A stretch of DNA of 64,000 bases. It comes from Shigella phage ChubbyThor. The notes under the pieces are model-generated. The model was not told the origin of the DNA, searched no databases, and saw nothing but the letters and a program-made list of their open reading frames with translations. Shown one piece after another: positions 735-54,109 of the stretch. Each line of letters opens with the position of its first letter. Position 1 is the first letter of the stretch. The position numbers and the translations under genes are program-made. Location of the stretch: sequence record OL615013. One strand, given 5' to 3'.

Positions 735-1044
735 ACGTTTGTCTCAGGTGTTCAGTAAAGGATTTACCCAGCTTGCGGAATAGTTTAATACGACCAATGA
801 CTTTGACGTAAACATCTCCGTGGCAGGGGCGTGGCTTACACCAGCACCCCAATACCTTCCCGTCAAGCTCAAGGAGTTCATCCTCGGTGATATCCCCTTC
901 AATCAGGCGCACATACAGGTCTTCTTCAAACAGTTCGATGCAGACGCCTCGTCCATGGTCTTTGACCTCGAACGGGTTCCCCCATTTACCAGGCCGACCA
1001 ATGTAGACGTCATATGGCTCCTTCTTGAAGTGGACGACTTTCAT
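715..1044 (-). CDS. DUF4326-like phage protein
   Basis: Start moved to internal ATG (MKVVHFKKEPYDVYIGRPGKWGNPF...GCWCKPRPCHGD), pattern recalled as DUF4326; ATGA overlap with upstream small ORF. Confidence 0.5.
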   Translation of the reverse strand: MKVVHFKKEPYDVYIGRPGKWGNPFEVKDHGRGVCIELFEEDLYVRLIEGDITEDELLELDGKVLGCWCKPRPCHGDVYVKVIGRIKLFRKLGKSFTEHLRQTYERRQR

Positions 1045-1214
1045 TTGAAGATCTCTACAGCGAACCCAATCGCGAAGTAGAGGGCGGCCACGCCGATAAG
1101 AGAGCAGCACACCATCTCCCTGACTTTGGACTCCCTGCTCATCTCGTATACCCCCAGTAACGCGTCAAAGAACATGAAGACACTAATGGCCAACAACAGA
1201 TGATCCCAGTTCAT
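1041..1214 (-). CDS. small hydrophobic membrane protein (57 aa, two predicted TM segments)
   Basis: Not in ORF track (short); ATG at 1212-1214 overlaps stop of 1211..1525 ORF (ATGA) and its own TGA overlaps ATG of DUF4326 gene; translation MNWDHLLLAISVFMFFDALLGVYEMSRESKVREMVCCSLIGVAALYFAIGFAVEIFK. Confidence 0.45.
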   Translation of the reverse strand: MNWDHLLLAISVFMFFDALLGVYEMSRESKVREMVCCSLIGVAALYFAIGFAVEIFK

Positions 1215-5714: not shown

Positions 5715-6242
5715 TCAGATACCGATAAATTCATCAAAAGATCCAACAACCTTCTTCACTGAGATCTTGTCATTCTCAATCAGGAAGTTGCTGTCGTTTT
5801 TGGCTGCTGTGGCCCAGTCATCGGCAAGTTCGTTACCTTCGTGCCCCGCATGACCCTTAACCCATTTTAGTTCAACTTCACAAATTGAACAAACGAGATC
5901 ATAGATTCTGAACAGATCTTTGATGAGTTCAACGTTCTTGTCTGGGAAGCCCTGATACTCCCACTTCGCTCGCCATTCGGTGACGCTCTTGATGGTGTAT
6001 TGACTGTCAGACCAAATTGTTGCCTTTGGTATTCTGCGCTCACCCTTTCCTGAGAATGCCCACAGCAGCTTCAATGCGTTGGTCACACCCAACAACTCGG
6101 CGATGTTGTTGGTGGACGGGGGAGGTAGGTGACCGAAGAACACCTTCCATTGCATACCCGATATTGGCCTGATGACAAATGCCCATCCTGCGGCCTGGTT
6201 GGTCTTCGGGTTAGAACCCCCGTCAGAATAAATTTCTATCAT
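5715..6242 (-). CDS. ribonuclease HI (RnhA-type)
   Basis: SDGGS near N-terminus and GHAGHEGNELAD motif; start moved from track position to ATG at 6240-6242 (MIEIYSDGG...). Confidence 0.75.
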   Translation of the reverse strand: MIEIYSDGGSNPKTNQAAGWAFVIRPISGMQWKVFFGHLPPPSTNNIAELLGVTNALKLLWAFSGKGERRIPKATIWSDSQYTIKSVTEWRAKWEYQGFPDKNVELIKDLFRIYDLVCSICEVELKWVKGHAGHEGNELADDWATAAKNDSNFLIENDKISVKKVVGSFDEFIGI

Positions 6243-6244
6243 GA

Positions 6245-6252
6245 TATAAATA
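6245..6252 (+). promoter_or_regulatory. exact T4-type late-promoter octamer TATAAATA, about 36 nt upstream of the plus-strand gene at 6288
   Basis: tataaata read directly at 6245-6252 in the divergent intergenic region. Confidence 0.3.
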
Positions 6253-6287
6253 TCCCAAACTGGTTTTATAGAAAGAGGAATGAAACT

Positions 6288-7055
6288 ATGGCACCCCGCG
6301 CATATCGTTTCAGTCTCACCGCCCCGCAGATTGAGCAATTGCTCCTTTCTATCAATGATGCTATCAAGTCAGAAGATATCATCTATGATTATGCTGCAGG
6401 TGGGACTGTTGGGCAAGTCGCAGCAGCGTCTGCCGTCAAGAACATGTGGTTGAAGCTCAACGAGATGGTAACAGGCCAAGGCCTCAAAGATGCCATCAAC
6501 GCTGCAGAAGACAGCAACGTGTTCACCGACTATTATAAGTCTTTACTGGATCGCGAAGGCTGGAAATTTATTGGGTCTCCGGCAGATGAACTTGAGCGAG
6601 GCGACATCGACACCGCGAACTTCACGGGTGGTGAGGTCATTCTACTTCAGAAGAACGCTTCAGGCAACCCCGAATTCCAATACTGGAAGCGTACCCCGGT
6701 TGCTGGGGGTGATCCGACCTTCGCCTGGGCTTCGGTCTATGAAGGGAACTCCAACGACTCCAGCATCGAAATCCCGGTGATTGGCACCAGCGTCCTCAAA
6801 GACATTCCCAAGGCTCTCTTCCATATGGTGGAGTTCCGGGTTCATGTCTATGATGAAACGCTGGGGCACTGGCAAGATACAGATGGCAAGGTGGGGTATC
6901 GTGGCGAGGATCTGTTCTACAGCACGTATAACCATGTGCAGACCAAACCGCTCGCCACCATTGACTTCAGTCAAGACACAGATAGCATGACAGTCTCTGT
7001 GACTTCCCTGGAGCCGAATGTCAAATGCCATCTGTCGTTTATCGCTGGTTACTAA
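6288..7055 (+). CDS. hypothetical protein (255 aa), plus-strand gene
   Basis: ATG at 6288 with AGAGGA SD 8 nt upstream; divergent from RNase H gene; track ORF 6129..7055 trimmed to this ATG. Confidence 0.55.
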   Translation: MAPRAYRFSLTAPQIEQLLLSINDAIKSEDIIYDYAAGGTVGQVAAASAVKNMWLKLNEMVTGQGLKDAINAAEDSNVFTDYYKSLLDREGWKFIGSPADELERGDIDTANFTGGEVILLQKNASGNPEFQYWKRTPVAGGDPTFAWASVYEGNSNDSSIEIPVIGTSVLKDIPKALFHMVEFRVHVYDETLGHWQDTDGKVGYRGEDLFYSTYNHVQTKPLATIDFSQDTDSMTVSVTSLEPNVKCHLSFIAGY

Positions 7056-8770
7056 ACCTCAAACACGGCATCAGTAAACCAAGCGGGGAAGAACTCTGGG
7101 TTGCGCATCATCAGTGATTCAAAAGAAGAATCAAGGATGTATGTCGCAGCCCAGTCATTCACGCCCCTGACCGAACGCCCGCACATCTGAACGATACGCA
7201 GTACCGCCATCCTGAAGTACGCCGATGGGTCTACACTGTTGACGTGAGCCACCAGAGGATCACCAAGGTAATCGTATGGAACCTTGATCAAGATCTGAAA
7301 TCGGCTGTAATCGCCTTTGAAGTCATACCCCTCTTCCATAGCCGGACTGGCGATGACACAAGGCGTCTTCGTCCGGAACGCGTGTTCCATGATGTCCATC
7401 AGAGCCTTACGAGTACGAGGAACGTGAATCATATTCCGGTACTTGCTAAACTTCTGTAGAGCCAGGGCGCGGTCATAGCTGACGGTGTGGATGATACCAG
7501 ACTGACCGGGGTGGAATGCGATGATCTCGTCCACGTATTCAGCCAGCTTCTTCATCTCATAGTCACCCATGTTGGACGACATCTTCATGACGGGCATGTA
7601 GTTGACTTTGCGGTTCTCAATCGGGATAGGGTTGCCGATCTGAATCTTGTGGTACTCACCATCACGGATACCCAGTGACCGAGCGTACGAGTCAATCCCA
7701 CAAATGGTCGCCGACATGTGAACATGATAGTCACCCTTGCGGAACAGGCCGAACTGAGACACATCAGAGGCAATGACAGGCTTGAACTGGATCATGCCCT
7801 TGTCCTTCTCCTGCACGATGAAGGTGCTGGCGTTGGTCTGCCCCATGATACCACAGTAGTCACTGAGGTTGTGAAGGGTGTCAATGATGTCAGACAACTT
7901 CATCACCTGGGCTTCAGTCAGGCGCTCGTCCTCTACCAGTTCCTCAAGGGTTTCTAAGAGGGCTTCAACCTTGTCATGCAGGTCGTCAAAGATCGCATGC
8001 ATCTCACCTGTCAGTGAGTACAGCTTACCCAACTCGTAATTCTCTGTGCGTCTGACGATATCCGTGATGATCTCCACGATAGGCACCCCCTCGGGGATTG
8101 TCAGCAACCCCCTTACAGCATTTATGCTGTATTCCATGATCGTGTGCTCTAGGAGCGTAGAGGGCATTTTATGGCACTCGTCAAGGATCAGCATATCGGC
8201 GCGGTTTTCCGGCTTCATACAGATCGTCGTGCACATCTCCACCATCATGGCGGCGTTGGTGCAGCGCAGAGAAGAGATGTCCGTCCAAAGACGACGAGCC
8301 TGAACATATGGGCAACGATTTTTATTACAGTGGCCATCTCGGCATGCCATACGGCACTGGATAGCGTTGTAATACAGGTCAGGACTGATATGACAACGAT
8401 AGTTCTTCTTGCCCTTCAGGATGTCTATCGCCACGGCTTTCTCCGCCGCATACTGATCTTGTAACCCTTTGGTCGGCGTCGTGATAGACGTGCGGAACTG
8501 ACCATACGGATTGCGCTCAAGAACCAGATGGCGAAGCACGTTATGGATGGTAGTGCCAATGAGGGATTTGCCCACACCAGTCGGAGCCTCGATGATCACG
8601 TGTTTGAATTTCTTATTCACAAGGGCATCAACGGCTTCAACGATGCACTCCATCTGGCCGGGGTTGGCGGTGTCGTATGGGAAGGACTCAGTGGCAAGAG
8701 ACTTGATGCGGTCTATGCTAACTGGTCCGACGCCATCAAGCGCCTTGGTATATTGGTTGAATGCTGTCAC
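7052..8770 (-). CDS. DinG/XPD-like superfamily-2 DNA helicase with Fe-S cluster
   Basis: Walker A APTGVGKS, DECH box, four-cysteine cluster CRMACRDGHCNKNRCPY between them. Confidence 0.7.
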   Translation of the reverse strand: MTAFNQYTKALDGVGPVSIDRIKSLATESFPYDTANPGQMECIVEAVDALVNKKFKHVIIEAPTGVGKSLIGTTIHNVLRHLVLERNPYGQFRTSITTPTKGLQDQYAAEKAVAIDILKGKKNYRCHISPDLYYNAIQCRMACRDGHCNKNRCPYVQARRLWTDISSLRCTNAAMMVEMCTTICMKPENRADMLILDECHKMPSTLLEHTIMEYSINAVRGLLTIPEGVPIVEIITDIVRRTENYELGKLYSLTGEMHAIFDDLHDKVEALLETLEELVEDERLTEAQVMKLSDIIDTLHNLSDYCGIMGQTNASTFIVQEKDKGMIQFKPVIASDVSQFGLFRKGDYHVHMSATICGIDSYARSLGIRDGEYHKIQIGNPIPIENRKVNYMPVMKMSSNMGDYEMKKLAEYVDEIIAFHPGQSGIIHTVSYDRALALQKFSKYRNMIHVPRTRKALMDIMEHAFRTKTPCVIASPAMEEGYDFKGDYSRFQILIKVPYDYLGDPLVAHVNSVDPSAYFRMAVLRIVQMCGRSVRGVNDWAATYILDSSFESLMMRNPEFFPAWFTDAVFEV

Positions 8771-9554: not shown

Positions 9555-10238
9555 TTACACCTCCACCGCGTGAGACTTCAGGAGTTCATCAATCGCTTTC
9601 TGACCCATGTAGGAGAATGGGGTGCGCTGGTAGAATGCCCACAGAACCAACTGAACTACAGCGCGGGAACGGGTTTCGGCTCGCATCACCAGGTCGCTGA
9701 AATGAGGAGACTCAGCCGTCCATTGGATCTCTTCGCCCAGGTCTTGATTACAGGTCACAGAGATGCGGAACTTGTTGCACAGATTGTCGACTTCTTTGTA
9801 CGCATCGGTAGACACCCGAAGTTGGTCTGCATGCGCCCATGGTGTCGTGACGATTCTTTCTCCCATCACTTTATCAGAGATAAACCAATCAATGGATTCA
9901 ACAAACTTGCCGAAATGGTCGATGCGATAAATGCAGTCTCCCCCTTCCATAGAACGCATGGCATGATAGCGAGCGTCGATTTCGTTGTTGTGCATCGCGT
10001 TGAAGTCGATGAACACGCGACGCGCCAACACAACATCTTCCGGCTCCAGAGGGATGTATTCCCCTTCGTTGCTAGACCTCCGGATGTTCGGATAATGTAG
10101 AATGCCGCTTAAATGCCCAGTGCAATATACATAACGAGGTCCAACACCCCCGACACGAGCATGAGCGACATAGGATGGTTCTGTGAATCGCAAGTGGCCT
10201 TGATCGGCACCGACGATAATAGAATAAAGGTTTTCCAT
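9555..10238 (-). CDS. hypothetical protein (227 aa)
   Basis: ORF track; ATG at 10236-10238 preceded by conserved leader ...GAGAACTATATC. Confidence 0.5.
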   Translation of the reverse strand: MENLYSIIVGADQGHLRFTEPSYVAHARVGGVGPRYVYCTGHLSGILHYPNIRRSSNEGEYIPLEPEDVVLARRVFIDFNAMHNNEIDARYHAMRSMEGGDCIYRIDHFGKFVESIDWFISDKVMGERIVTTPWAHADQLRVSTDAYKEVDNLCNKFRISVTCNQDLGEEIQWTAESPHFSDLVMRAETRSRAVVQLVLWAFYQRTPFSYMGQKAIDELLKSHAVEV

Positions 10239-10295
10239 GATATAGTTCTCTCAAATGAAAGGGCGACCTTATGATAAGCCGCCCTGGATTATTGA

Positions 10296-11204
10296 TTATT
10301 GGAAATCGCCGACATACATGTTCAGCTTGTCATCCCAGTTCAGAACGATGCGGATCGTTCCGGAATCTTCAGGGAATGACAGCTTAGAGCACATGGCGCG
10401 ATTGACATAAGTCCCGCTCTGGTTGACGTTGTAGTCCTTGCCTTGCATAATACCGAAGCGCTTGAAGTCGCGAGTGACCATCATGTTCAACGTGGTCCAC
10501 GGAATGATGTCACGCAAGGCTTTACACAGGATGATCTTGCCATCCGACCTGAACGACACAAACAGCTCGTTGGCGATACGACGGCGAGCAGGCGGCTCGA
10601 GTTCGCGCAGGGAGATAAATTCAGAGGGATCGTCCAATGCACCCAGGGTGATCATGTCTTCGCGAACTTTATTGACAATTTCAGTTACTGCTGACACGAC
10701 TTCAACTGCCGGATTCGTCTTAAATGGCTCAACAGTCGTGGACATCTTGGATACAGACATCCCGTTGCCGTTGCGCTTCTCTGCATATTGCTCGACGGAC
10801 TTGTCGCTCACCGGAGGCAGTTTGGTGGCAGGAGTTATGACCGGGCTTGCATCTGGTTTCGCCTTTGGGGTACTCCGAGCCGCACGCAGCTTTTCCTGGG
10901 CTTCCAGAATGCGCTCTTGACGAGAAAGTGGAGCCTTTGGGGTGATCTTCGTACTGAAATCTGAAACGCCGACCCAATCACCCTGGTCATTACGCTTGGC
11001 GACCAGAGTCAGTTTGTGGATGATGCCCTGAAGTTTGCTCTCACGCAAGTTGTCGGCATACCAGAACTTCGCGCCCATCTCGAACTTCTCGGCGAAGATC
11101 ACGCGAGCGTCTTCGTGTACCAACATAACTTTGGCTGTGTTGGGGGCAAAAGCCTTATTCTTTTCGATAATCGCCGCAGCGATTGATTTGGTCAGGAGCA
11201 TCAC
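10296..11204 (-). CDS. hypothetical protein (302 aa) with Pro/Lys-rich linker
   Basis: ORF track; long ORF, no recognised motif. Confidence 0.5.
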   Translation of the reverse strand: MMLLTKSIAAAIIEKNKAFAPNTAKVMLVHEDARVIFAEKFEMGAKFWYADNLRESKLQGIIHKLTLVAKRNDQGDWVGVSDFSTKITPKAPLSRQERILEAQEKLRAARSTPKAKPDASPVITPATKLPPVSDKSVEQYAEKRNGNGMSVSKMSTTVEPFKTNPAVEVVSAVTEIVNKVREDMITLGALDDPSEFISLRELEPPARRRIANELFVSFRSDGKIILCKALRDIIPWTTLNMMVTRDFKRFGIMQGKDYNVNQSGTYVNRAMCSKLSFPEDSGTIRIVLNWDDKLNMYVGDFQ

Positions 11205-11252
11205 AGTGTATTCCTTCAGTTCACAATGTAGGGCTAAATTTTAACCCGAAAC

Positions 11253-11570
11253 TTATTTTTGAAATCCGACAAAGTCCTGGGCAATCCCCCGACAATACAT
11301 CAAGTCTTTCTTCGTTTGTGGGCTGTTTTCGGCCGCAGACATCATCATTGGTAGGTCCAGCGCATTCTCTATCTGATCAACACTGAACAGATCAAGGCGC
11401 TTCAGCTCTCCCTCGAAGTCAGACAGGAGGATAGATGTATCTTTGTCGTCCGGATGGAATTGCTGGTACGTCTCCATCCAGGCGGCGCAGGTATTCAGTT
11501 TAGACGGTGGTGTGGCGTTTACACACCCGGCCATCAGTAACAGCAGGAGTAGGATTTTACCTTTCATCAC
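11253..11570 (-). CDS. predicted lipoprotein (105 aa)
   Basis: N-terminus MMKGKILLLLLLMAGCVNA: hydrophobic signal with lipobox-like MAGC. Confidence 0.5.
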   Translation of the reverse strand: MMKGKILLLLLLMAGCVNATPPSKLNTCAAWMETYQQFHPDDKDTSILLSDFEGELKRLDLFSVDQIENALDLPMMMSAAENSPQTKKDLMYCRGIAQDFVGFQK

Positions 11571-12253
11571 TCGTTCTCCTTCATCATATTGTCGCAGTCA
11601 ACACGAGTCTGCTGGAGTTCGCGCGACATGCGAGGATCATCAAGGTTCACGCTCAGATTCGTGGCCAAGTCTTTCAGACCGTTCTGAACACGATCCTCAA
11701 AATAATGGTCGTTCTCAACCAGCCAGGCTCTGAGGCCAAGAGCGCGAGTACGCCATTCCTTCTTCAGGACGCGATCAGAGGTCTGCGTAGCGCTGTATTC
11801 GAATACTTTGATGCACTGATTGCCATCGTTGATGAGGTTCAGGTGACGGCGGCCTATCTGCACACCCTTCTGTAATGCCGGAGAAGGGAGAGAACGGCAC
11901 TGTCTGACTGTCATGCGGCCTTGGGTGCCCATTCGACCAGTCATGATAAGATCGCCAGCCTCCATGCCGCCTCGGTTAAATTCGTCGTCATTGAGGTAGC
12001 CCTTGAGGTTATAGGCTCCCTGTTTGTATCGGTTGAACTCAATCCCGGCGTTAACAACAGCAGTGGAGACGTTGCCTGTGTTCCAGAGTTCAGCAAAGTT
12101 CTCTATGGAACCAGACTTGTCGATGGCGACTGCCTGGGAGAACCCAGCACAGTAGGAAAGATCAGACCACAGTTTGTCACCTGTGGAGTTCAGCTTGGCG
12201 GCGGCGGGTAATGCCAGACCAGCCAGCACGACCCCGAGGATTAAACGTTTCAT
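11567..12253 (-). CDS. secreted/periplasmic protein (228 aa)
   Basis: Start moved to ATG at 12251-12253 with AAGGAGA SD; N-terminus MKRLILGVVLAGLALPAAA signal peptide. Confidence 0.55.
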   Translation of the reverse strand: MKRLILGVVLAGLALPAAAKLNSTGDKLWSDLSYCAGFSQAVAIDKSGSIENFAELWNTGNVSTAVVNAGIEFNRYKQGAYNLKGYLNDDEFNRGGMEAGDLIMTGRMGTQGRMTVRQCRSLPSPALQKGVQIGRRHLNLINDGNQCIKVFEYSATQTSDRVLKKEWRTRALGLRAWLVENDHYFEDRVQNGLKDLATNLSVNLDDPRMSRELQQTRVDCDNMMKENE

Positions 12254-12338
12254 GGTGATTCTCCTTATTTCATTGGATGAAATGATAGGCGGCTCACCAT
12301 GTTGAGTAAAGGGTTTCAATAAACTATCGTATTCAGAA

Positions 12339-13169
12339 TCATTGGAATTCAACTCCATACCTTTCAAGCCATTTATCACAAGTTAAAGGATCCCAACCAT
12401 TATCTAACCTTCGAATAATCGGATTCACTTTAGCCCAGATCCCAGAAGAATTGGAACCGAATACTTCTTTAATGGCTTCTCCCTTGGTCTTACCTTTCAA
12501 TATATGGTAATGTATGTGGGCTGCCCAACACCACCAATTATCCCTATCCGGAGTCCATCTTGGCTTCTCCCAAGGCATTTGCTCTCTGGAGGTTCTGGTA
12601 AAAGCCTCAACACGTTTCCTTTCTTGGTCCGATGTCAATTTATTGGTTAGGCTCTTTCCATAACAGTGATGGTGCTCTCCTCTCTTGACACCTGCATTTC
12701 TCTTCGCAAAGAATTGTTTCAGTTCAGGGTCTTCCTTGCGCTTGTCTTCATAGAATTTCAGCAGTGAATCTGAAGTTGCATCTTTGGCTGCCTGAGACTT
12801 CTTTTTACCATACATCGGGTTGTTAGCCCCTCTGTTCTCTTCGGACAATCTCGCGGCGTATTTCTTACGCATTTTGGCGAAGAGATGTGAATTAACTCTG
12901 TGGCCATTCCTTCTCAGGATCATCAGCGCCTTTACCATACACGTATCCGGCAGCGCCAGAGCGAGACACACGTGAGCAATATAGTGGACGCGGTGTGGTA
13001 ATTTGATTAAATTGTTCTTATCTTTCTTGAATTGAGGAAATAGGGCGGCTGGAAGGATGTGGTGAAATTCTCCTTCCCCGTTGTAATCTGAATAGGCTGA
13101 AAGCAATTTCACATATTTGCCTACAAAGTGCGGTTTGCCACCTATTGTTAAAAGATATTCTCTTTTCAT
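12339..13169 (-). CDS. HNH-type homing endonuclease-like protein
   Basis: N-terminal EFHHILP...NNLIKLPHRVHYIAH (HNH pattern); NPMYGKK DNA-binding repeat like those in the GIY-YIG endonuclease at 32793. Confidence 0.6.
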   Translation of the reverse strand: MKREYLLTIGGKPHFVGKYVKLLSAYSDYNGEGEFHHILPAALFPQFKKDKNNLIKLPHRVHYIAHVCLALALPDTCMVKALMILRRNGHRVNSHLFAKMRKKYAARLSEENRGANNPMYGKKKSQAAKDATSDSLLKFYEDKRKEDPELKQFFAKRNAGVKRGEHHHCYGKSLTNKLTSDQERKRVEAFTRTSREQMPWEKPRWTPDRDNWWCWAAHIHYHILKGKTKGEAIKEVFGSNSSGIWAKVNPIIRRLDNGWDPLTCDKWLERYGVEFQ

Positions 13170-13618
13170 TTGTAGTGACTATCACTGACCGTCCGGTACT
13201 TCACACCCTTGAACTGCTTGGCGACCTTGACGAACTCCATCGCTGGCATGCCCACTTTGTAGACCTTGATGCGCTGGCGGTCATCCATGTTCAGGGCGGC
13301 GACATAGCGGTGTGAGCCGTCGACCACATAGTTATCAGAAGACACCCAAACCCGACCCATGGGCTTCTTGTTTCTGATGTTCTTCATGATCTTCCAGACC
13401 TTCATCTTGTTGATTTCGTTCTGGGTGAGACGGAGCGATTTGATAGGAACCTGACCAGCGTCGATGGTGATGCCAAGTTCCTCCAAGTAGTCATGGAACG
13501 CCTGCTGCTTGTCATCGTCGATCTGTGGCATAGAAGAACGAGAAAGCCCGAGGTTTCCAACAGGAATCCTCAGGCCGTTGATAATGTTCAACCAGTCTAT
13601 GAAGGAAGACATGAACAT
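13166..13618 (-). CDS. ParB-like nuclease domain protein
   Basis: VWVSSDNYVVDGSHRYVAA resembles ParB N-terminal motif; track start is GTG, moved to ATG at 13618 with GAGGTG SD. Confidence 0.55.
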   Translation of the reverse strand: MFMSSFIDWLNIINGLRIPVGNLGLSRSSMPQIDDDKQQAFHDYLEELGITIDAGQVPIKSLRLTQNEINKMKVWKIMKNIRNKKPMGRVWVSSDNYVVDGSHRYVAALNMDDRQRIKVYKVGMPAMEFVKVAKQFKGVKYRTVSDSHYK

Positions 13619-13761
13619 GAGATTCACCTCGGGATATGGATTATCCCTTAGTTAGGCGTGAAAAGTCTTACACAGGACGGCTCCGAGATATTCACACAAC
13701 AAAACGATCACGACGCCCAATGAACACCCAATAAGCCAACCCCAAAATTCAATACTCACCA

Positions 13762-14049
13762 TCACACCTCGTCTTCTTCAGGTCCACCATCAATCAGGAT
13801 ACGAGCGGTGTCGAAACCTTCCCCGCCTGTGTTCAACAGCTTGGTCAGATCATCAAGGGTATCGACAGGACCAAGATCAGCCTTGCGCAGAATGAACTCG
13901 AGAAGGCCGTAGAGCGCTGTTTTGTACCGTTCACCGTCGATATCGTTTTTGACTTTCATTAAGTCAATAATCGCGTCTGTCTCCCTGAAACCTGTTTCAA
14001 CTTCACTGCGCACCATAGAGAATAGAGCGAGTTCTTCGTCCCTTTTCAT
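13762..14049 (-). CDS. hypothetical acidic protein (95 aa)
   Basis: ORF track. Confidence 0.4.
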   Translation of the reverse strand: MKRDEELALFSMVRSEVETGFRETDAIIDLMKVKNDIDGERYKTALYGLLEFILRKADLGPVDTLDDLTKLLNTGGEGFDTARILIDGGPEEDEV

Positions 14050-14420
14050 AACGTACCCCCAACAGAGATCATGAACTCTTCTTCAATGGTCGTGACAGGG
14101 CGGCGGTTGCGGGTTTCGATCATGAAGCCCCAGCCGCCGTCGGCGACGTTGCCAAAGGTCTTGACGCCAAAGGTCTTCTTCCCGTTGGAGCAGGCATAGA
14201 AGTCCAAGATGAACGGACTGCCCTGATTGTCGATCCCACGGTTTACACCATCCGCTACACAGCGCTCAATCATCTTCCCGTTCTTATACAGAACGAGGTC
14301 TTGACCATATGCCTTGAAAGCATAAACGCCGTTGGTAGACACTCCGGTGATGACAGGAGGAGCGGAAACAGCAGAGAAGGAAGCGCCCAGCAGGGCAACG
14401 GCGAGGATTAACTTTTTCAT
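14046..14420 (-). CDS. secreted protein (124 aa)
   Basis: Start moved to ATG at 14418-14420; N-terminus MKKLILAVALLGASFSAVSA signal peptide. Confidence 0.55.
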   Translation of the reverse strand: MKKLILAVALLGASFSAVSAPPVITGVSTNGVYAFKAYGQDLVLYKNGKMIERCVADGVNRGIDNQGSPFILDFYACSNGKKTFGVKTFGNVADGGWGFMIETRNRRPVTTIEEEFMISVGGTL

Positions 14421-14444
14421 GATATAGTCTCTTGGTTTCAAATG

Positions 14445-14466
14445 GGCGGGGTAATCATACCCCGCC
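14445..14466 (-). terminator. GC-rich hairpin (repeat copy 1), terminator-like
   Basis: GGCGGGGTA / TACCCCGCC 9-bp stem, loop ATCA; same 20-mer recurs at about 15006. Confidence 0.5.
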
Positions 14467-14472
14467 GTGGGT

Positions 14473-14979
14473 TTATAGGGTAACAAGTGATACGGTAAAA
14501 ACCATCGTCCCGTCTGTTGCCATTTTTCTTGAAACTGGTATGACGCGAGGCTGGCAGAATATCCATTCTTTCTCCATGGACGCCAAGTCCAGCATATCCA
14601 TTTCTGATTCATCGCCTTTGTTCACAAATTTTTCTAGAGAACCATAGACATTAAGCCCCTCCGGGAGTCCGTTTCGATGTTTGTAACAAATGCGGGCAAC
14701 AGCTTTGGTTCCGTACGATTTAGAAAATTGTTTGGCCACATGCTTCAGTTCACTGAAGCTAAGACAAGAATCCCATGTCTGGAACATGTCGCCTCGTTCA
14801 AACAACATCTCTAAACGCGCAACGTCCTCCTTAGGCAGCCCGCGATAAAGTGTGGTCGTCTGTGGCTCGCGTAATTCTTGCACCAGATCACGGACGGCAG
14901 GGGAAACAGTACCGGGGCGCATGATGTGGGACTTATCATGGGCGAGGTAAAATAAATCTTGAATTTGTTGATCGGTCAT
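14473..14979 (-). CDS. hypothetical protein (168 aa)
   Basis: Track start is TTG; moved to ATG at 14977-14979 preceded by ...GCAGGAACTATATC. Confidence 0.5.
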   Translation of the reverse strand: MTDQQIQDLFYLAHDKSHIMRPGTVSPAVRDLVQELREPQTTTLYRGLPKEDVARLEMLFERGDMFQTWDSCLSFSELKHVAKQFSKSYGTKAVARICYKHRNGLPEGLNVYGSLEKFVNKGDESEMDMLDLASMEKEWIFCQPRVIPVSRKMATDGTMVFTVSLVTL

Positions 14980-15005
14980 GATATAGTTCCTGCATTTCAA
15001 ATAGA

Positions 15006-15023
15006 CGGGGTAATCATACCCCG
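15006..15023 (-). terminator. GC-rich hairpin (repeat copy 2), terminator-like
   Basis: CGGGGTA / TACCCCG stem, loop ATCA; near-identical to 14447..14466. Confidence 0.45.
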
Positions 15024-15038
15024 CCCAAAGTTATAGAA

Positions 15039-15278
15039 TTAACTGATGTGCTTCAGAAGAGCGAAGAGGATCGCGGCCTTGGCTTTCACCTTGCCGACGA
15101 CGCCTGTCTCAACATCGACTTCTTCAGCAACCCACTCTTTGCCCTTCTTGCTGATGATAACGTCACGGCGCTGGGCATATACCTCTTTGGTCGCATACAC
15201 ACGACGGAACCCTTTAGCGCGGAGCAAGCCCCAATTGCGATCAATCTCTACTGAAGTTTCGACCATTTTGTTCTTCAT
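15039..15278 (-). CDS. hypothetical basic protein (79 aa)
   Basis: ORF track; ATG at 15276-15278. Confidence 0.4.
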   Translation of the reverse strand: MKNKMVETSVEIDRNWGLLRAKGFRRVYATKEVYAQRRDVIISKKGKEWVAEEVDVETGVVGKVKAKAAILFALLKHIS

Positions 15279-22817: not shown

Positions 22818-24836
22818 TTAGAACACAACTTTCACAGTGCGGTTGAACGAGCCGCTCACCTTCACGAACACGTGGTTGCGTTGGGTGGTAGAGAAGCCCA
22901 GACCGGACAGCTGCTCAGTGCTTGGCTGTACTTTAATCTTACCACCTAACATTTCAAAAACCTTGCGGTGTTTATCAAGTTCCGGCTTCAGATATTCGTT
23001 GTAGAAGCCACGGGTGCCGACAGGGTTAGCACAACCTTCCAGGATGAAGAACACGTGCTTGTTGCCCGTCTGCTCGCCGTCCCAATGGTTTGGTGAGTTC
23101 AGAACCAGCTGTACCTTCTGGAAGACGGAGGTCTTGATGCCCCAGATTTCCTGAGAGCGAGCGTCGTCTTTCAGGGTAGAACTGATGTCGACCACCTGAC
23201 CAGCGCGTACCTGAACCACAACAGCCAACGTGCGGTCTTTGTTTCCCAGACCAGGATGCGAGAAGCGCTTGGTCTGGCCTTTGTATTCAACTTCGATTTC
23301 GAAGCCCACATCGCAGGTTTCGCGCTTGCTGTAGTTGGTGACATAGAACTCATAGTTCCCGTCACGCAGCTTGCATTCATCGCTGAAGAAGATGTTCTCC
23401 ACCGGACGGCGGTTCGGGTCAATACCGTCCATACCGTTCATGTCGATGTCCAGGGTTGCACCAGTTGCCGAACGACGGTTGTTGAAATACACGTGGTTGT
23501 GAAGAGGATCGTTCAGGCTCAGATCCAGGTCGTCGTTGTTATGCCAAGCCAGCGACACACGGAGGAAGCTGTCGACGTTGCCGCCTGCGGTCTTCACGCG
23601 CTCTTTGATGGAGTCGGCCACTTCACCGTTGTATGACCAGCTGAAGCCGTTGTTCCACTTGAACAGGTTAGGAGCACCTGCCGTAGCCGGAGCGATCAGG
23701 GACATCAGGTTGCCAGTGTGAGAGTTTTCAACCAGCACTTCCAGGGAATGCGCCTTTGGCAACACGTTGGTCAGGAAGTCGTCGATGGTGATCTCTTCAA
23801 CCTTGTCCAGGGACTTGGTCGGAGTCTTCACTTCAGACGCCAGCTGAGCAAACGGGTCCATCTTCTTCTGCGCTGCCAGGTCGGCGAACAGAACGTTGTT
23901 GATGGTCAGATCGTCATACACGGCATAACGGCGACCCAGTGAATCGGTCAGACCCAGCGCTTCGACTTCTTTCTGCGCGTTTTCAATCATGGACTTCGTG
24001 ACCAGCGCGGTTGGGCGCTTGTAGTTCGTCGGAGCGACTTTGGCTTCAAAGGACTTCACGGCGGTTTCCAGATCCCGACCTTCATTGAGGTCTACCAACA
24101 GAGAGCCAATCACGGTATTGCGGATGCCGTGAGGGGTGTGTCCGTTTGCACGGTAGCCAGTACGCCAAGCCCACAGAGCGCGTTTCTCTTCTGCAGTTTG
24201 TTCGTACAGGGTCTTGCTCGTCACGAACGCCTGTACTGCTGCTTTGTGCTCTTCACCACGATACAGAGAATTCTGATCAATCAGTTCCAGAACGATTTCG
24301 GCCGATTCCAGAGACAGTTCACGCAGGCCGCGCTCAAACACTTCAATCGCCTGGCGGATTTCACCCTTCTTAGAAGCGATGACATCAGCCCGCAGAACAT
24401 AGCTGGGCAGCAGGTCGGTGTGGAAGTGGTTGTAGGTGCGGACATTACCGTCTTTCATTTCGTGATTCGACTCAACACCGACTTTCTTGGTATCGTTGAA
24501 GTACACGTCGACGATTGCGTGTTGCTTGACATACGCAGACAGCGCCGCGGCGACAACGTCGTATTCGTTACCCAGCTGAATGTTATCCCAGATAGAGATC
24601 ACGTTCAGGTCGGCGTCGATGGTCACCACACCGCCGATGTTACGGATGAATTGTTTACAGCAGGTGCAGTCGTGCTCGGTGCGCTCACGGTAGAGCGGGT
24701 TGGTGCCAGCAGGGAAAGAAGACAGATACAGATCCCACAGAGCATCTTTATCGATGTTGGTCATGAACAGACCAGTTGCTGACATGGCCAGCACATTATT
24801 GTTTACAGCTACTGCGAAGGGCTTAAATTCTGACAT
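22818..24836 (-). CDS. large hypothetical protein (672 aa)
   Basis: Long ORF with ATG start; no polymerase or other motif recognised. Confidence 0.6.
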   Translation of the reverse strand: MSEFKPFAVAVNNNVLAMSATGLFMTNIDKDALWDLYLSSFPAGTNPLYRERTEHDCTCCKQFIRNIGGVVTIDADLNVISIWDNIQLGNEYDVVAAALSAYVKQHAIVDVYFNDTKKVGVESNHEMKDGNVRTYNHFHTDLLPSYVLRADVIASKKGEIRQAIEVFERGLRELSLESAEIVLELIDQNSLYRGEEHKAAVQAFVTSKTLYEQTAEEKRALWAWRTGYRANGHTPHGIRNTVIGSLLVDLNEGRDLETAVKSFEAKVAPTNYKRPTALVTKSMIENAQKEVEALGLTDSLGRRYAVYDDLTINNVLFADLAAQKKMDPFAQLASEVKTPTKSLDKVEEITIDDFLTNVLPKAHSLEVLVENSHTGNLMSLIAPATAGAPNLFKWNNGFSWSYNGEVADSIKERVKTAGGNVDSFLRVSLAWHNNDDLDLSLNDPLHNHVYFNNRRSATGATLDIDMNGMDGIDPNRRPVENIFFSDECKLRDGNYEFYVTNYSKRETCDVGFEIEVEYKGQTKRFSHPGLGNKDRTLAVVVQVRAGQVVDISSTLKDDARSQEIWGIKTSVFQKVQLVLNSPNHWDGEQTGNKHVFFILEGCANPVGTRGFYNEYLKPELDKHRKVFEMLGGKIKVQPSTEQLSGLGFSTTQRNHVFVKVSGSFNRTVKVVF

Positions 24837-34538: not shown

Positions 34539-35180
34539 ATGCGCGGGATCAGTAGATTGTTGTTGGCATGCGCGATGCTCTTACTTACGAGCTGTCGCAT
34601 CTTTGTCACGCCAATAATTTCTGTTTCCGAACTCTGGAACCCAGAAGTACGCACCGTACCTGTGACGTTGTCGGCCAGTGTTCCTACTTGTAACAAGGGT
34701 ATGCTGGACATCATCGTGCAAGAGTTCCAGACCTTCCAGAAGCTCGTACCTTTAGGTTGCTTCGAGGAGAACACGAGCACCCTCAAGCCTTACTGGAAGA
34801 CCACGATTCCCCTCCTGCGGCGTGGCGATGAAGGGAAGATTCCATACCTATCAGCAAGTATTTATTACTCTCAGAACAACAGCATCATCATCACTTTTAA
34901 TCCATCATTCTACGCCAAGCTGAAGCAACACATGGTTGGGCGACTGAGTGAAACATCGGATATAATCGTGACGTTCAAAATCATGAATGACTCAGATAAA
35001 CCAGTACGAATCGCAACTCAGGGTGTGTTTGTCAACAACGATGCTGTTGGGAATGAGATGAACATCTTCGAAGTGAAGCCAGAGGGGACGATCTGGATCA
35101 GGCTGAGCAACGTCGGGGTGAACTCCCTACTGTTGGATGGCATCGAACCAGTGGGAGTTCTTCCGGCTCGGGAGCGCTGA
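34539..35180 (+). CDS. predicted lipoprotein (213 aa), plus-strand gene
   Basis: Track start is TTG; first ATG at 34539 gives MRGISRLLLACAMLLLTSC with lipobox LTSC; converges on 35182..35910. Confidence 0.45.
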   Translation: MRGISRLLLACAMLLLTSCRIFVTPIISVSELWNPEVRTVPVTLSASVPTCNKGMLDIIVQEFQTFQKLVPLGCFEENTSTLKPYWKTTIPLLRRGDEGKIPYLSASIYYSQNNSIIITFNPSFYAKLKQHMVGRLSETSDIIVTFKIMNDSDKPVRIATQGVFVNNDAVGNEMNIFEVKPEGTIWIRLSNVGVNSLLLDGIEPVGVLPARER

Positions 35181-36965: not shown

Positions 36966-37247
36966 TTAGAACAAATGCTCGCCTTCCACATGGTATGCTA
37001 ACACGCCGTCAGAACATTCAAAATACATGTTATCATATTCCCACAGAGCGGTGATTTCTTCACCCTGGCAAACTACCGAAAACTTCGGCTGGCTGGCCTT
37101 AACTGGAAATTTTTCAGGGGAAGAGATTGGGGTGAATTTGGCATTTCTGACGGCCATACCAACAAATTGCTGCAATGTTACTTTGTAACGAGAGTGGGTG
37201 ATAGTACCAGCATTCAGGGCTTCGATCAATTGCGCTTTAGTTGTCAT
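36966..37247 (-). CDS. hypothetical protein (93 aa)
   Basis: ATG preceded by conserved leader AAGGAACTATATC. Confidence 0.45.
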   Translation of the reverse strand: MTTKAQLIEALNAGTITHSRYKVTLQQFVGMAVRNAKFTPISSPEKFPVKASQPKFSVVCQGEEITALWEYDNMYFECSDGVLAYHVEGEHLF

Positions 37248-53028: not shown

Positions 53029-53781
53029 TTATCCCATATAGAAGTCAATCGGGTATTGCTGGCCAGTACGAAGTTCTTCCTCTAAACGCTCGATCTCCGC
53101 TTCAGCCTCGCTGAACATAGTATCACCATCCAGCTCAATACCGCCAGGGAGACGGATGCCTCTTGCCTTCTTCAGCACCTCTGCCCAACGGCGTTTTACC
53201 AGAGCTGTTGCATACGCCTTCAGCCACATGTCATTCCATGCTTCTTCGTTCCCTTCTACCTCGGGGTCAATGTTCTGATAACACTTGAACGCCAAAGCCT
53301 CGTCCTTTGTCAGGGCGAATTGAGGGTAGAGTTTGCGCTGGAATTTCTTGTACACGAAGGTGCGCTTCACGTTCAGCACACTGGTGATGTCGGACAGGCG
53401 CTGCTGCATTGAGACATAATCGATCAGGCGGATAGACACCAGCGCTGACTTCGGCACCAACATAGCCTGCGCCATTTGCCACTGAGGGGTTGCCCAGTTA
53501 CCGATAGATTCAATTGGTGGTCCTGGAATGACTTCGGTGACGTCGTCGATATCTTTCGGGAATTCGATGTAGCCCTTCGTGATAGTGTCGTCATCAACGA
53601 CATGGACGAAGAACGCATCCTGGCTACCGTCGCGGTGATACTCCCAGAATTTCTGTAGAGCGTCATCGACAGCGTCGGACACCTGTGATGGGTCGAGGTT
53701 GATCTGAATTACGGGTGCCCCCAATTTCTTGAGGATGTAATTCATAAACCCCTTGCGGTCTCTGATAGAATTAACGGCCAT
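53029..53781 (-). CDS. 13: neck protein (T4 gp13-like)
   Basis: N-terminal ILKKLGAPVIQINLDPSQV resembles T4 gp13 ILRRLGAPIINVELTPDQI; track start is GTG, moved to ATG at 53779-53781. Confidence 0.7.
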   Translation of the reverse strand: MAVNSIRDRKGFMNYILKKLGAPVIQINLDPSQVSDAVDDALQKFWEYHRDGSQDAFFVHVVDDDTITKGYIEFPKDIDDVTEVIPGPPIESIGNWATPQWQMAQAMLVPKSALVSIRLIDYVSMQQRLSDITSVLNVKRTFVYKKFQRKLYPQFALTKDEALAFKCYQNIDPEVEGNEEAWNDMWLKAYATALVKRRWAEVLKKARGIRLPGGIELDGDTMFSEAEAEIERLEEELRTGQQYPIDFYMG

Positions 53782-54109
53782 TGACGTTCCCCTTACCACT
53801 CTGGAGATCAGATACCGTAATCCGCAGAGTTCGCACGTCGTCGGACAGACTGCTGCTATTGAGTTTTAATTCAGCAACGTTCTGCTTGACGTAGTTGACG
53901 TCTGTGTTCAATACAGCGATCTTCTCACTCATATCGTTGACTTTGACAAGGATCTGGTCAACCTTGTTAGAATCCCGCTCAACCACATCAAGACGGTTTT
54001 CGAACTTACCCATCATCCAAACAACCGAGCCAACAGAGACTATCGCCGCCGTCAGCACCCCGGTGAGGATCGCTTTCACATCGATCACAGTGTTAGTTTG
54101 AGTTGTCAT
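53771..54109 (-). CDS. small membrane-anchored coiled-coil protein (112 aa)
   Basis: Start moved to ATG at 54107-54109 with CAGGAGG SD; N-terminal TM VLTAAIVSVGSVVWMMG then heptad-like region. Confidence 0.45.
   Translation of the reverse strand: MTTQTNTVIDVKAILTGVLTAAIVSVGSVVWMMGKFENRLDVVERDSNKVDQILVKVNDMSEKIAVLNTDVNYVKQNVAELKLNSSSLSDDVRTLRITVSDLQSGKGNVNGR

What the first reader, a model, noticed from the sequence alone, without database searches (positions are those of the whole stretch)
11253..14420. Cluster of secreted and lipoprotein genes in the early region: candidate superinfection-exclusion or envelope-targeting factors
Three genes encode proteins with clear N-terminal export signals: a lipoprotein with lipobox at 11253..11570, a 228-aa secreted protein at 11567..12253, and a 124-aa secreted protein at 14046..14420. 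They are interleaved with an HNH endonuclease and a ParB-like nuclease. Periplasmic proteins made early by a lytic phage are typical of exclusion or receptor-masking functions.
Basis: inference. Interest (0 to 1): 0.45.

Follow-up and report, generated by a model that had tools for sequence, protein, structure and literature searches.

The report
Exported phage envelope proteins, doubtful spanins
Three genes of this Ag3/MK-13-like Ackermannviridae phage do encode exported proteins, but two of them are a conserved periplasmic protein pair that databases call a "spanin" (a lysis protein) on untested grounds, and neither that label nor a role in superinfection exclusion is demonstrated.

Summary
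The window is an Agtrevirus-like Ackermannviridae genome (97% identical to Shigella phage MK-13). All three export signals are real and lie at the stated coordinates on the minus strand.

They are not one unit. The 228-aa and 104/105-aa genes form a translationally coupled pair. A sigma70-type promoter sits upstream and is conserved in four genera. The pair occurs in about 270-281 Ackermannviridae genomes. The 124-aa gene is accessory, found in 99 genomes.

Databases label the pair i-spanin/"Rz-like spanin". That label traces to one unverified annotation of phage Marshall in Kongari 2018, where the curator wrote "taking his word". The same paper lists ten relatives as spanin-less.

The defining spanin features fail:
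- The 228-aa family has a short cleavable signal peptide with a conserved A-x-A site, not a membrane anchor.
- It has no predicted coiled coil.
- The lipobox cysteine of the small protein exists only in this sub-lineage. Most homologues have ordinary signal peptides.
- The small protein folds as a compact helical bundle (pLDDT 86) with no known structural relative, T4 Spackle included.

Best reading: an early-made, disulfide-bonded periplasmic pair, tethered to the outer membrane in this lineage, whose biochemical target is unknown. A protective or exclusion role is plausible but untested.

The parts
12282..12310 (-). Sigma70-type promoter TTTACT-17 nt-TATCAT directly 5' of the 228-aa gene
   Evidence: Found by the consensus scan. 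The -35 hexamer is invariant. The -10 keeps TAnnAT and the 17-nt spacing in six phages of four genera. In Klebsiella phage May the spacer sequence has diverged but the hexamers and spacing are kept (alignment A4). An inverted copy of the intergenic motif TTCAATAA lies just upstream.
11567..12253 (-). Large partner: 228-aa precursor of a periplasmic protein. Signal peptide is aa 1-19 (nt 12197..12253), with A-x-A|K. Four invariant Cys (35, 119, 147, 220). Databases call it 'i-spanin'.
   Evidence: ORF and RBS. PHROG 4260, unknown function. Alignments A1 and A6. Signal-site statistics. 100% identical to Ag3 orf00133 and present in 270 phage records. An exhaustive HMMER search found only 10 representatives. 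The AF2 model is poor, pLDDT 38.
11253..11567 (-). Small partner: 104-aa precursor (105 aa if the GTG at 11570 is used). Lipobox LMAG-C15 with +2 Val, and an alternative SPase I site VNA|TP. The mature part is a helical bundle with two invariant Cys. Databases call it 'Rz-like spanin'.
   Evidence: The start overlaps the stop of the 228-aa gene. PHROG 3843 at 1.7e-54. Alignments A2 and A5. Lipobox survey. AF2 pLDDT 86, helices 23-37, 42-57, 63-67, 72-79 and 83-102. Present in 281 phage records.
10296..11204 (-). 302-aa gene downstream of the pair. No terminator separates it from the pair, so it is probably co-transcribed. No export signal. Variable among genera.
   Evidence: ORF. PHROG 3828, unknown function. 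59% identity in SFP10 and 34% in May. The 48-nt gap holds no terminator-like site.
10260..10285 (-). Terminator-like hairpin ending the presumed transcription unit
   Evidence: Scan. RNA fold -18 kcal/mol, z = -5.3.
12339..13169 (-). Free-standing HNH/NUMOD3 homing endonuclease, inserted between the 153-aa gene and the pair's promoter
   Evidence: Pfam NUMOD3 and PHROG 655. Absent from MK-13, CECAV_050, phiD3, SFP10 and May. Copies about 69% identical lie immediately upstream of the pair in K5lambda5 and BRM 13314, apparently the same intergenic site.
13166..13627 (-). Not exported.
   Evidence: PHROG 2859, unknown function, at 6.5e-45; ParB-like only at E 2.6e-4. 64-97% identical in all eight compared loci. 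The phiMAM1 record notes similarity to an 'unknown structural protein' of LIMEstone1.
13652..13762 (-). 36-aa ORF with one hydrophobic helix, its start overlapping the stop of the 95-aa gene
   Evidence: Translation MVSIEFWGWLIGCSLGVVIVLLCEYLGAVLCKTFHA. Found only in MK-13 among the compared loci. A 'membrane protein' is annotated at this position in CECAV_050.
13762..14049 (-). 95-aa acidic protein without an export signal, overlapping the 124-aa gene by 4 nt
   Evidence: ORF. PHROG 4458, unknown function. Patchy conservation.
14046..14420 (-). 124-aa precursor of a secreted protein with two invariant Cys. Signal peptide is aa 1-19 (nt 14364..14420). Accessory gene.
   Evidence: ORF. PHROG 5474, unknown function. 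Alignment A3. Present in only 99 phage records, from Aglimvirinae and Taipeivirus. No Pfam, NCBIfam, PADLOC or PDB match.
14447..14464 (-). GC-rich hairpin between the Alt-like gene and the 124-aa gene. An identical copy lies at 15006..15023.
   Evidence: Two exact copies against 0.01 expected. RNA folds of -19 kcal/mol, z about -4.4.

Best explanation
The finding contains two unrelated units.

Unit 1 (12310..11253, minus strand) is a core Ackermannviridae module.
- A conserved sigma70-type promoter drives two translationally coupled genes. Both products are exported by the Sec pathway into the periplasm and are probably oxidised to disulfide-bonded proteins.
- The large partner loses a 19-residue signal peptide. 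Its mature form, about 209 aa, is probably soluble.
- The small partner is a compact helical bundle. In this lineage only it has gained a lipobox, so here it is probably lipid-anchored to the inner face of the outer membrane.
- Coupled translation, strict adjacency in every lineage examined and matching distribution suggest the two act together, probably as a complex (inferred).
- It is not a canonical Rz/Rz1-type spanin, whatever the database labels say.
- My favoured role, at about 35% probability, is a protective or exclusion-type envelope function exerted from early infection. One example would be neutralising a periplasm-active component of incoming or progeny phage, as T4 Spackle does by a different fold.

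Unit 2 (14420..14046) is an accessory secreted protein with two conserved Cys and unknown target. It is transcribed with the genes upstream of it.

Shown: export signals, gene coupling, promoter conservation, distribution, the fold of the small partner, and failure of the spanin criteria. Inferred: complex formation, disulfides, outer-membrane tethering, early timing, and function.
For: Identity and synteny.

Export signals:
- Only three classical signal peptides were found among about 72 genes.
- The -3/-1 positions are conserved while -2 and the hydrophobic core vary, across 20 (large family) and 38 (small family) distinct signal sequences.
- Distant homologues P0079, P0080, P0086, phiMAM1 gp096/gp097, Bue1 gp094/gp093 and two metagenomic contigs all have ordinary A-x-A signal peptides.

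Coupling and adjacency:
- TGATG overlap in the window.
- 1- or 4-nt overlaps in phiMAM1, Bue1, L013 and L014.

Promoter and timing:
- Promoter.
- No late-type CTAAATAC motif in 9-18.5 kb, whereas all seven exact copies lie on the coding strand: five within about 30 nt upstream of a called ORF start, one (32043) just inside a called ORF and one (42573) within a called ORF.

Invariant Cys pairs.

Small partner structure: pLDDT 86, all-alpha.

Core distribution: 281, 270 and 99 records for the small, large and 124-aa proteins. Relative conservation.

Against the spanin label:
- The hydrophobic core of the large partner is 12 residues followed by Pro. Lambda-type Rz has about 20 (sequence shown).
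- Kongari Tables S2/S3 give no coiled coil and 35% helix for the Marshall orthologue.
- A canonical lipobox occurs in only 6-8 of 37 full-length clusters. It is lost in P0032, a protein 97% identical to the window's.
- The curator's note reads 'taking his word'.
- Ten related phages are listed as spanin-less in the same paper.
- Later genomes from the same centre (May, Mutine, Mooltan) call the pair 'hypothetical'.
Against: - No positive evidence for any exclusion or protective activity. There are no PADLOC, Pfam, NCBIfam or PDB sequence hits.
- No homology or fold match to T4 Spackle, although Spackle structures are in the searched PDB set.
- The gp5-like hub lysozyme does not show the same steep divergence as the large partner. 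It is 60-80% identical in the distant genera, against 27-36% for the large partner.
- The pair is near-universal and strongly conserved, which fits an essential step such as lysis better than a typical accessory exclusion gene.
- These phages have no other recognised spanin, so an outer-membrane role remains attractive.
- Signal-peptide cleavage and lipidation are predicted, not measured. SignalP and LipoP could not be run.
- The large partner could not be modelled (pLDDT 38).
Confidence: 0.5

Rival explanations
1. The pair is a real but atypical two-component spanin, as annotated. The 228-aa protein stays in the inner membrane by an uncleaved signal-anchor. The small protein sits in the outer membrane, or binds it. 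The complex fuses the membranes at lysis.
For: - Gene order and overlap match spanin architecture ('sep' class in Kongari Table S4).
- The small protein has a lipobox in this lineage.
- The pair is core and conserved.
- These phages have no other annotated spanin. The holin and endolysin genes are scattered as in T4, whose spanin genes also lie away from the other lysis genes.
- Lipobox-like cysteines appear in more than one sub-lineage (AGC, ISSC, GVAC). This hints that the protein acts at a membrane.
Against: - The hydrophobic core is only 8-16 residues. A conserved Pro and an A-x-A site follow it in most members, and every lineage, including those only 27-36% identical, keeps a -3/-1 site.
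- No coiled coil.
- Most small-partner homologues have no lipid anchor. In most genera, therefore, neither partner would be membrane-bound.
- The small partner is a compact helical bundle, not an extended linker.
- In phiMAM1 and Bue1 the large partner is only 126 and 165 aa.
- The label rests on an unverified student annotation.
Confidence: 0.17
2. The pair regulates lysis timing from the periplasm. It would act as an antiholin or lysis-inhibition sensor like T4 RI, or as a control on the endolysin.
For: - T4 RI is a small exported helical protein.
- The phage encodes rIIA and rIIB homologues and a small holin candidate.
- Early expression and periplasmic location would suit a sensor.
Against: - The annotated holin candidate is only 53-57 aa with two hydrophobic helices, so it has no periplasmic domain to bind.
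- No fold or sequence similarity to any solved structure. I assume, but did not verify, that the searched PDB sets include the T4 RI-T complex.
- Lysis inhibition has not been documented for this family in the papers searched.
Confidence: 0.08
3. The large partner is a periplasmic enzyme or host-manipulating factor acting on peptidoglycan, LPS, lipoprotein links or a host periplasmic defence. The small helical partner is its inhibitor, chaperone or targeting subunit. This would include a new, anchor-independent way of weakening the outer membrane.
For: - Invariant glycine-rich motifs (SYCAGF, GGMxAGDLIMTG, NDGNQC) and two Cys pairs in the large partner.
- Translational coupling.
- The spanin-less status of the family leaves an unfilled function.
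Against: - No match to any enzyme family.
- The large-partner model is unusable.
- An enzyme exported early would need tight control.
Confidence: 0.2

Closest known systems
Two-component spanins (lambda Rz/Rz1; T4 PseT.3/PseT.2)
   Same: Two adjacent, overlapping genes, the upstream one larger. The downstream product carries a lipobox in this phage. Both products act in the periplasm. As in T4, the genes lie away from the holin and endolysin genes. This is the label used by PHROGs, RefSeq, UniRef and the GenBank record of phage Marshall.
   Different: The upstream protein has a cleavable signal peptide instead of a type II transmembrane anchor, and no predicted coiled coil. The lipobox is absent from most homologues. 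The small protein is a compact, confidently folded helical bundle rather than a short proline-rich or beta-alpha-beta linker. There is no sequence similarity to any characterised spanin and no functional test.
T4 Spackle (gp61.3), periplasmic inhibitor of the gp5 tail lysozyme
   Same: A small Sec-exported, all-alpha periplasmic protein with two Cys, one near each end of the mature chain. Spackle is an early gene. The phage carries a gp5-like hub lysozyme. Spackle's own signal peptide also holds a lipobox-like LASC before its A-x-A site.
Lipoprotein exclusion factors (T5 Llp, phi80/N15 Cor)
   Same: A small outer-membrane lipoprotein made by a phage, in this lineage.
   Different: No sequence relationship. 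Not next to a receptor-binding protein gene. The lipid anchor is not conserved in the family. These phages recognise polysaccharides with tailspikes.
T4 RI antiholin
   Same: A small exported helical periplasmic protein of a large lytic myovirus.
   Different: No detectable similarity. No holin with a periplasmic domain is evident in this family.

Membership tests
i-spanin (Rz-like) | N-terminal transmembrane domain retained as a type II inner-membrane anchor | tested here: not met
   The hydrophobic core is 12 residues followed by Pro and A-x-A|K. Of 20 distinct signal sequences, including homologues only 27-36% identical, 19 have A at -3 and all have A, S or G at -1, while -2 is free. This is a heuristic plus comparative test; SignalP was not available.
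i-spanin (Rz-like) | Mostly alpha-helical periplasmic domain with coiled-coil propensity | tested here: not met
   Kongari Tables S2/S3 give 35% helix and zero coiled-coil segments for the 98%-identical Marshall protein. AF2 gives no confident helical rod.
i-spanin / o-spanin pair | Adjacent, overlapping or embedded gene pair with the i-spanin gene upstream | tested here: met
   TGATG overlap in the window. The same arrangement holds in every lineage examined.
o-spanin (Rz1-like) | Outer-membrane lipoprotein signal: lipobox Cys with no Asp at +2 | tested here: inconclusive
   Met in the window (LMAG-C, +2 Val). A canonical lipobox is present in only 6-8 of 37 full-length homologue clusters. 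It is replaced by Ser in a protein 97% identical to the window's. It is absent in Limestonevirus, Kuttervirus, Taipeivirus, Miltonvirus and Nezavisimistyvirus members.
Two-component spanin | Functional: disrupts the outer membrane at lysis (complements lambda Rz/Rz1 mutants) | not testable with these tools
   No experimental report was found in the papers searched. The Marshall call is annotation only.
T4 Spackle family | Sequence or fold homology to gp61.3 | tested here: not met
T4 Spackle family | Binds and inhibits the tail-hub lysozyme domain | not testable with these tools
Known anti-phage or exclusion proteins (PADLOC models; P22 SieB type) | Profile match | tested here: not met
   No PADLOC hit for any of the three proteins. 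The SieB-type gene annotated in SFP10, May, phiMAM1 and Bue1 is a different gene, and the syntenic Agtrevirus loci MK-13 and CECAV_050 list no such gene.
HNH homing endonuclease (gene 12339..13169) | HNH/NUMOD3 domains and sporadic presence at one intergenic site | tested here: met
   Pfam NUMOD3 and PHROG 655. Absent from the closest relatives, yet present immediately upstream of the pair in K5lambda5 and BRM 13314, apparently the same site.

The most novel reading that the evidence does not exclude
Ackermannviridae are listed as 'spanin-less'. They may use this anchor-free, or only outer-membrane-tethered, periplasmic pair as a new kind of outer-membrane disruption or envelope-control system. 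It would work without bridging the two membranes. Alternatively, the pair is a new two-protein superinfection-exclusion system unrelated to Spackle, Imm or Llp.
Probability: 0.2. Interest if true: 0.7.

Novelty: already known. Interest (0 to 1): 0.35.

Why it matters
How Vi01-like phages (Ackermannviridae) breach the outer membrane has been an open point since they were listed as spanin-less in 2018. These phages are widely used in Salmonella, E. coli O157, Klebsiella and Dickeya biocontrol.

The only 'spanin' label in their genomes sits on this pair. It is now propagated automatically through PHROGs, RefSeq and UniRef. This analysis shows the label rests on one unverified call and fails the defining tests. 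Lysis annotation of about 280 genomes should therefore be treated as unknown at this locus.

The pair is a well-defined, small and experimentally tractable target. Simple complementation, fractionation and deletion experiments would decide between a lysis role and an exclusion role.

Tried and rejected
- **Structure of the 228-aa protein.** AF2 with a 14-sequence alignment gave pLDDT 38, which is unusable. No fold search was run on it.
- **Fold searches with the good 104-aa model.**
  - Foldseek against PDB gave nothing.
  - BFVD returned only the orthologue from Erwinia phage phiEa2809.
- **Sequence and profile searches.**
  - PDB sequences gave nothing, with single sequences or with profiles A5 and A6.
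  - Pfam (also at E<=10 on all A6 members), NCBIfam and PADLOC gave nothing.
- **Exhaustive HMMER search with the 228-aa profile.** It returned only 10 representatives, all Ackermannviridae-like.
- **Spackle homology.** Rejected.
- **Co-divergence with the hub lysozyme.** Not seen.
- **T4 late promoter TATAAATA.** Only one copy, at chance level. CTAAATAC replaced it as the candidate late motif.
  - The one-mismatch copy CTGAATAC upstream of the pair overlaps the stop codon of the upstream gene. It lies at a chance-level mismatch count, so it was not taken as a late promoter.
- **Literature searches.** Searches for Ackermannviridae transcriptomics or experimental lysis data returned nothing relevant.
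- **The 124-aa protein.** A visual resemblance to MliC/PliC motifs was not backed by Pfam and was dropped.


Full report
**What the window is**

The region 10200-15100 is 96.9% identical to Shigella phage MK-13. It is 94-96% identical to Ag3 and other Agtrevirus-type Ackermannviridae. More distant matches occur in 274 phage records from Salmonella, Klebsiella, Escherichia, Dickeya and Serratia hosts.

The genes of the finding are all on the minus strand. They lie between a helicase/HU-like gene block and an acyl-carrier/vWA/NAD-salvage block.

**Observation check**

The 228-aa ORF (12253..11567) starts at an ATG seven bases after AAGGAG. Its stop overlaps the start of the small ORF (GAGTGATG). 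The small ORF therefore starts at ATG 11567, or at the GTG one codon upstream at 11570. The 124-aa ORF (14420..14046) overlaps by 4 nt a 95-aa ORF, which in turn overlaps a 36-aa hydrophobic ORF.

The N-termini are:
- MKR-LILGVVLAGLAL-PAAA|K for the 228-aa protein.
- MKGK-ILLLLLLM-AG-C-VNA|TP for the small protein.
- MKK-LILAVALLGASFSAVS|APP for the 124-aa protein.

In a crude gene call of the whole window (72 genes, 94% coverage), a heuristic signal-peptide scan flagged only these three as classical signals.

The comparative test is stronger. Across 20 distinct signal sequences of the large family, -3 is Ala in 19, -1 is Ala, Ser or Gly in all, and -2 is free. Across 38 distinct signal sequences of the small family, -1 is Ala in 36.

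The HNH gene is a genuine homing endonuclease. 'ParB-like' is a weak call for the 153-aa gene.

The 'cluster', however, is weak as a statistical or functional unit. Two of the three genes are one operon. The third is present in only 99 phage records, against 270-281 for the pair.

**Anatomy of the pair**

*Promoter.* A sigma70-type promoter (TTTACT, 17 nt, TATCAT; 12310..12282) lies in the 85-nt gap upstream. In an alignment of six phages from four genera the -35 hexamer is invariant. The -10 keeps TAnnAT at the same spacing. In the most divergent member, Klebsiella phage May, the spacer sequence has changed but the hexamers and spacing are kept.

*Transcript end.* No terminator separates the pair from the following 302-aa gene. 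A strong hairpin follows that gene.

*Timing.* The motif CTAAATAC occurs seven times exactly, always on the coding strand. Five copies lie within about 30 nt upstream of a called ORF start in or next to the structural part of the window; one (32043) lies just inside a called ORF and one (42573) within a called ORF. None occurs between 9 and 18.5 kb. I take it as the late-promoter-like element, so the pair looks early/middle. This timing is inferred, not measured.

*Adjacency.* The pair is adjacent and overlapping in every lineage examined:
- MK-13, CECAV_050, phiD3, SFP10 and May.
- phiMAM1 and Bue1.
- Two metagenomic Ackermannviridae-like contigs.

*Large partner.* In phiMAM1 and Bue1 it is only 126 and 165 aa. 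These versions keep the N-terminal core and the last Cys. Four Cys are invariant in the long form, and C35 and C220 are invariant in all forms. In the small partner, C27 and C92 are invariant. This pattern fits periplasmic disulfide-bonded proteins.

*Conservation.* The large partner is 87-99% identical across Agtrevirus, Limestonevirus, Kuttervirus and Taipeivirus. That is more conserved than HU, ACP or the vWA protein in the same loci. It drops to 27-36% in the deeper branches.

*Structure.* AF2 gives a confident compact helical bundle for the small partner: pLDDT 86 overall and about 95 in the mature part. The large partner gives an unusable model.

**The spanin label and where it comes from**

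PHROG 3843, which contains the small protein, is named 'Rz-like spanin'. RefSeq copies that name. UniRef names the large protein 'I-spanin'.

Kongari et al. 2018 (PMC6139136) list the Marshall orthologues as a 'separated' two-component spanin. It is a singleton family and the longest of all, with 300 periplasmic residues, no coiled coil and 35% helix. [quoted passage not shown] '.

The same paper lists Vi01, SFP10, SJ2, SJ3, Maynard, CBA120, Phax-I, ECML-4, RC-2014 and phiSboM-AG3 as spanin-less. Later genomes from the same centre (May, Mutine, Mooltan) call both genes hypothetical.

My alignments explain most of the inconsistency. The lipobox Cys exists only in the Agtrevirus/Marshall-type sub-lineage, as AGC or VGC. 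A few isolated clusters carry other lipobox-like forms. A protein 97% identical to the window's has Ser instead. Most homologues, including all the distant ones, have plain A-x-A signal peptides ending just before the conserved mature N-terminus. The exception is phiSboM-AG3 itself: it is the Agtrevirus type and the window's closest relative, so its copy probably carries the lipobox too, and its listing as spanin-less remains unexplained.

**Membership tests**

For an i-spanin, the defining type II membrane anchor is not met. The hydrophobic core is 12 residues, then Pro, then a conserved SPase I site. A lambda-type Rz has a run of about 20 residues (sequence shown). Coiled-coil propensity is also not met.

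For an o-spanin, the lipobox is met in this phage but is not a property of the family. The compact bundle fold is unlike known o-spanin linkers.

Only gene arrangement is met. In most genera neither partner would be membrane-bound. That excludes the membrane-bridging mechanism for the family and, by homology, makes it unlikely here.

**Exclusion-type analogies**

The family does carry a gp5-like hub lysozyme. That protein's divergence pattern does not mirror the large partner's.

A P22 SieB-type gene is annotated a few genes away in SFP10, May, phiMAM1 and Bue1. It is a different gene, and the syntenic loci of the window's closest relatives (MK-13, CECAV_050) list no such gene. PADLOC finds nothing.

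**Best explanation and rivals**

The pair is an early-expressed module of two Sec-exported, disulfide-bonded periplasmic proteins that most likely act together. The small partner is additionally lipid-tethered in this lineage, with +2 Val pointing to the outer membrane by the Lol sorting rule (established knowledge). The target is unknown.

My probability estimates are:
- About 35% for a protective or exclusion-type envelope role.
- About 20% for an enzyme/partner or anchor-independent envelope-weakening role.
- About 17% for a genuine atypical spanin.
- About 8% for lysis-timing control.
- The remainder for something not considered.

The 124-aa protein is a separate, accessory secreted protein. 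It has two conserved Cys and no detectable relatives outside Aglimvirinae and Taipeivirus.

**Novelty and value**

The genes, their export signals and a putative function were already recorded in the literature and in databases. The window's proteins are 100% identical to those of known phages. The feature is therefore already known.

The useful result is negative. Interest is moderate to low. It would rise sharply if the pair proved to be the missing outer-membrane step of these 'spanin-less' phages.

Noticed in passing
window 14447-14464 and 15006-15023 (minus strand), flanking gene 14473..15000: Two identical 18-nt GC-rich hairpins (CGGGGTATGATTACCCCG) bracket the Alt-like ADP-ribosyltransferase gene. 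Each folds at about -19 kcal/mol and each is followed by (C/U)AUUUGAAA. In SFP10 and phiD3 the same slot holds denV instead. This looks like cassette exchange between repeated stem-loops, reminiscent of the promoter-early stem-loops of T4-type phages.
   Followed up: partly
window minus strand: 436, 32043, 35937, 42217, 42573, 52752, 63891: CTAAATAC occurs seven times exactly, all on the coding strand. Five copies lie within about 30 nt upstream of a called ORF start; one (32043) lies just inside a called ORF and one (42573) within one. It is a candidate late-promoter element of this family. The T4 late motif TATAAATA occurs only once, at chance level.
   Followed up: partly
window 9251, 15324, 24924, 37309, 37331, 38324 (minus strand); inverted copy at 12315-12322: The motif TTCAATAA, often as TTATTCAATAA, occurs 8 times against 2 expected. 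It is mostly intergenic and lies next to TTTACT -35-like hexamers. It may be an early/middle promoter-associated element or a regulator-binding site.
   Followed up: partly
window 53771..54109 (minus strand): A 112-aa protein with a 22-residue N-terminal transmembrane helix and a heptad-rich C-terminal part (PHROG 3961, unknown function) sits inside the baseplate/tail module. By its features it resembles an i-spanin (type II anchor, T4 PseT.3-sized) more than the 228-aa protein does. No lipoprotein gene lies beside it.
   Followed up: partly
window 34539..35180 (plus strand): A 213-aa ORF on the opposite strand to its neighbours starts MRGISRLLLACAMLLLTS-C, a second lipobox candidate in the window (PHROG 3832, unknown function; by coordinate mapping it probably corresponds to MK-13 gp168). 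Conservation of its lipobox was not examined.
   Followed up: no
window 1041..1214 (minus strand): A 57-aa ORF with two hydrophobic helices probably corresponds, by coordinate mapping, to the gene RefSeq calls 'holin' in MK-13 (gp129). It lies about 10 kb from the pair. The endolysin gene lies outside the window, so lysis genes are scattered as in T4.
   Followed up: partly
window 12339..13169 (minus strand): The HNH/NUMOD3 homing endonuclease is absent from the closest relatives. Copies about 69% identical lie immediately upstream of the pair, apparently in the same intergenic site, in several Klebsiella and Salmonella Ackermannviridae. This suggests a recurrent homing site just upstream of the pair's promoter.
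   Followed up: partly
window upstream regions of 9555..10238, 14046..14420, 14473..15000, 15039..15278, 22818..24836, 36966..37247: Many genes share a stereotyped translation start region, GAGA/GGAA-(A)CTATATC-ATG, often preceded by a hairpin plus CATTTGA(A/G). This looks like a repeated intergenic module.
   Followed up: no
L010 (SFP10) 6352-7669; L011 (May) 6266-6903; L004 (phiMAM1) 4424-4888; L005 (Bue1) 4403-5182 and 6123-6596: In other genera the variable stretch between the pair and the HU-like gene carries a P22 SieB-type 'superinfection exclusion' gene, a LysM-domain gene and/or a lipoprotein gene. A 263-aa Band-7/SPFH-domain protein occupies a nearby slot in metagenomic contig L014 (5237-6028), but none of the annotated lipoprotein genes was scanned for that domain. 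No such genes are listed in the syntenic Agtrevirus loci (MK-13, CECAV_050). The stretch seems to be a hot spot for envelope-related accessory genes.
   Followed up: no
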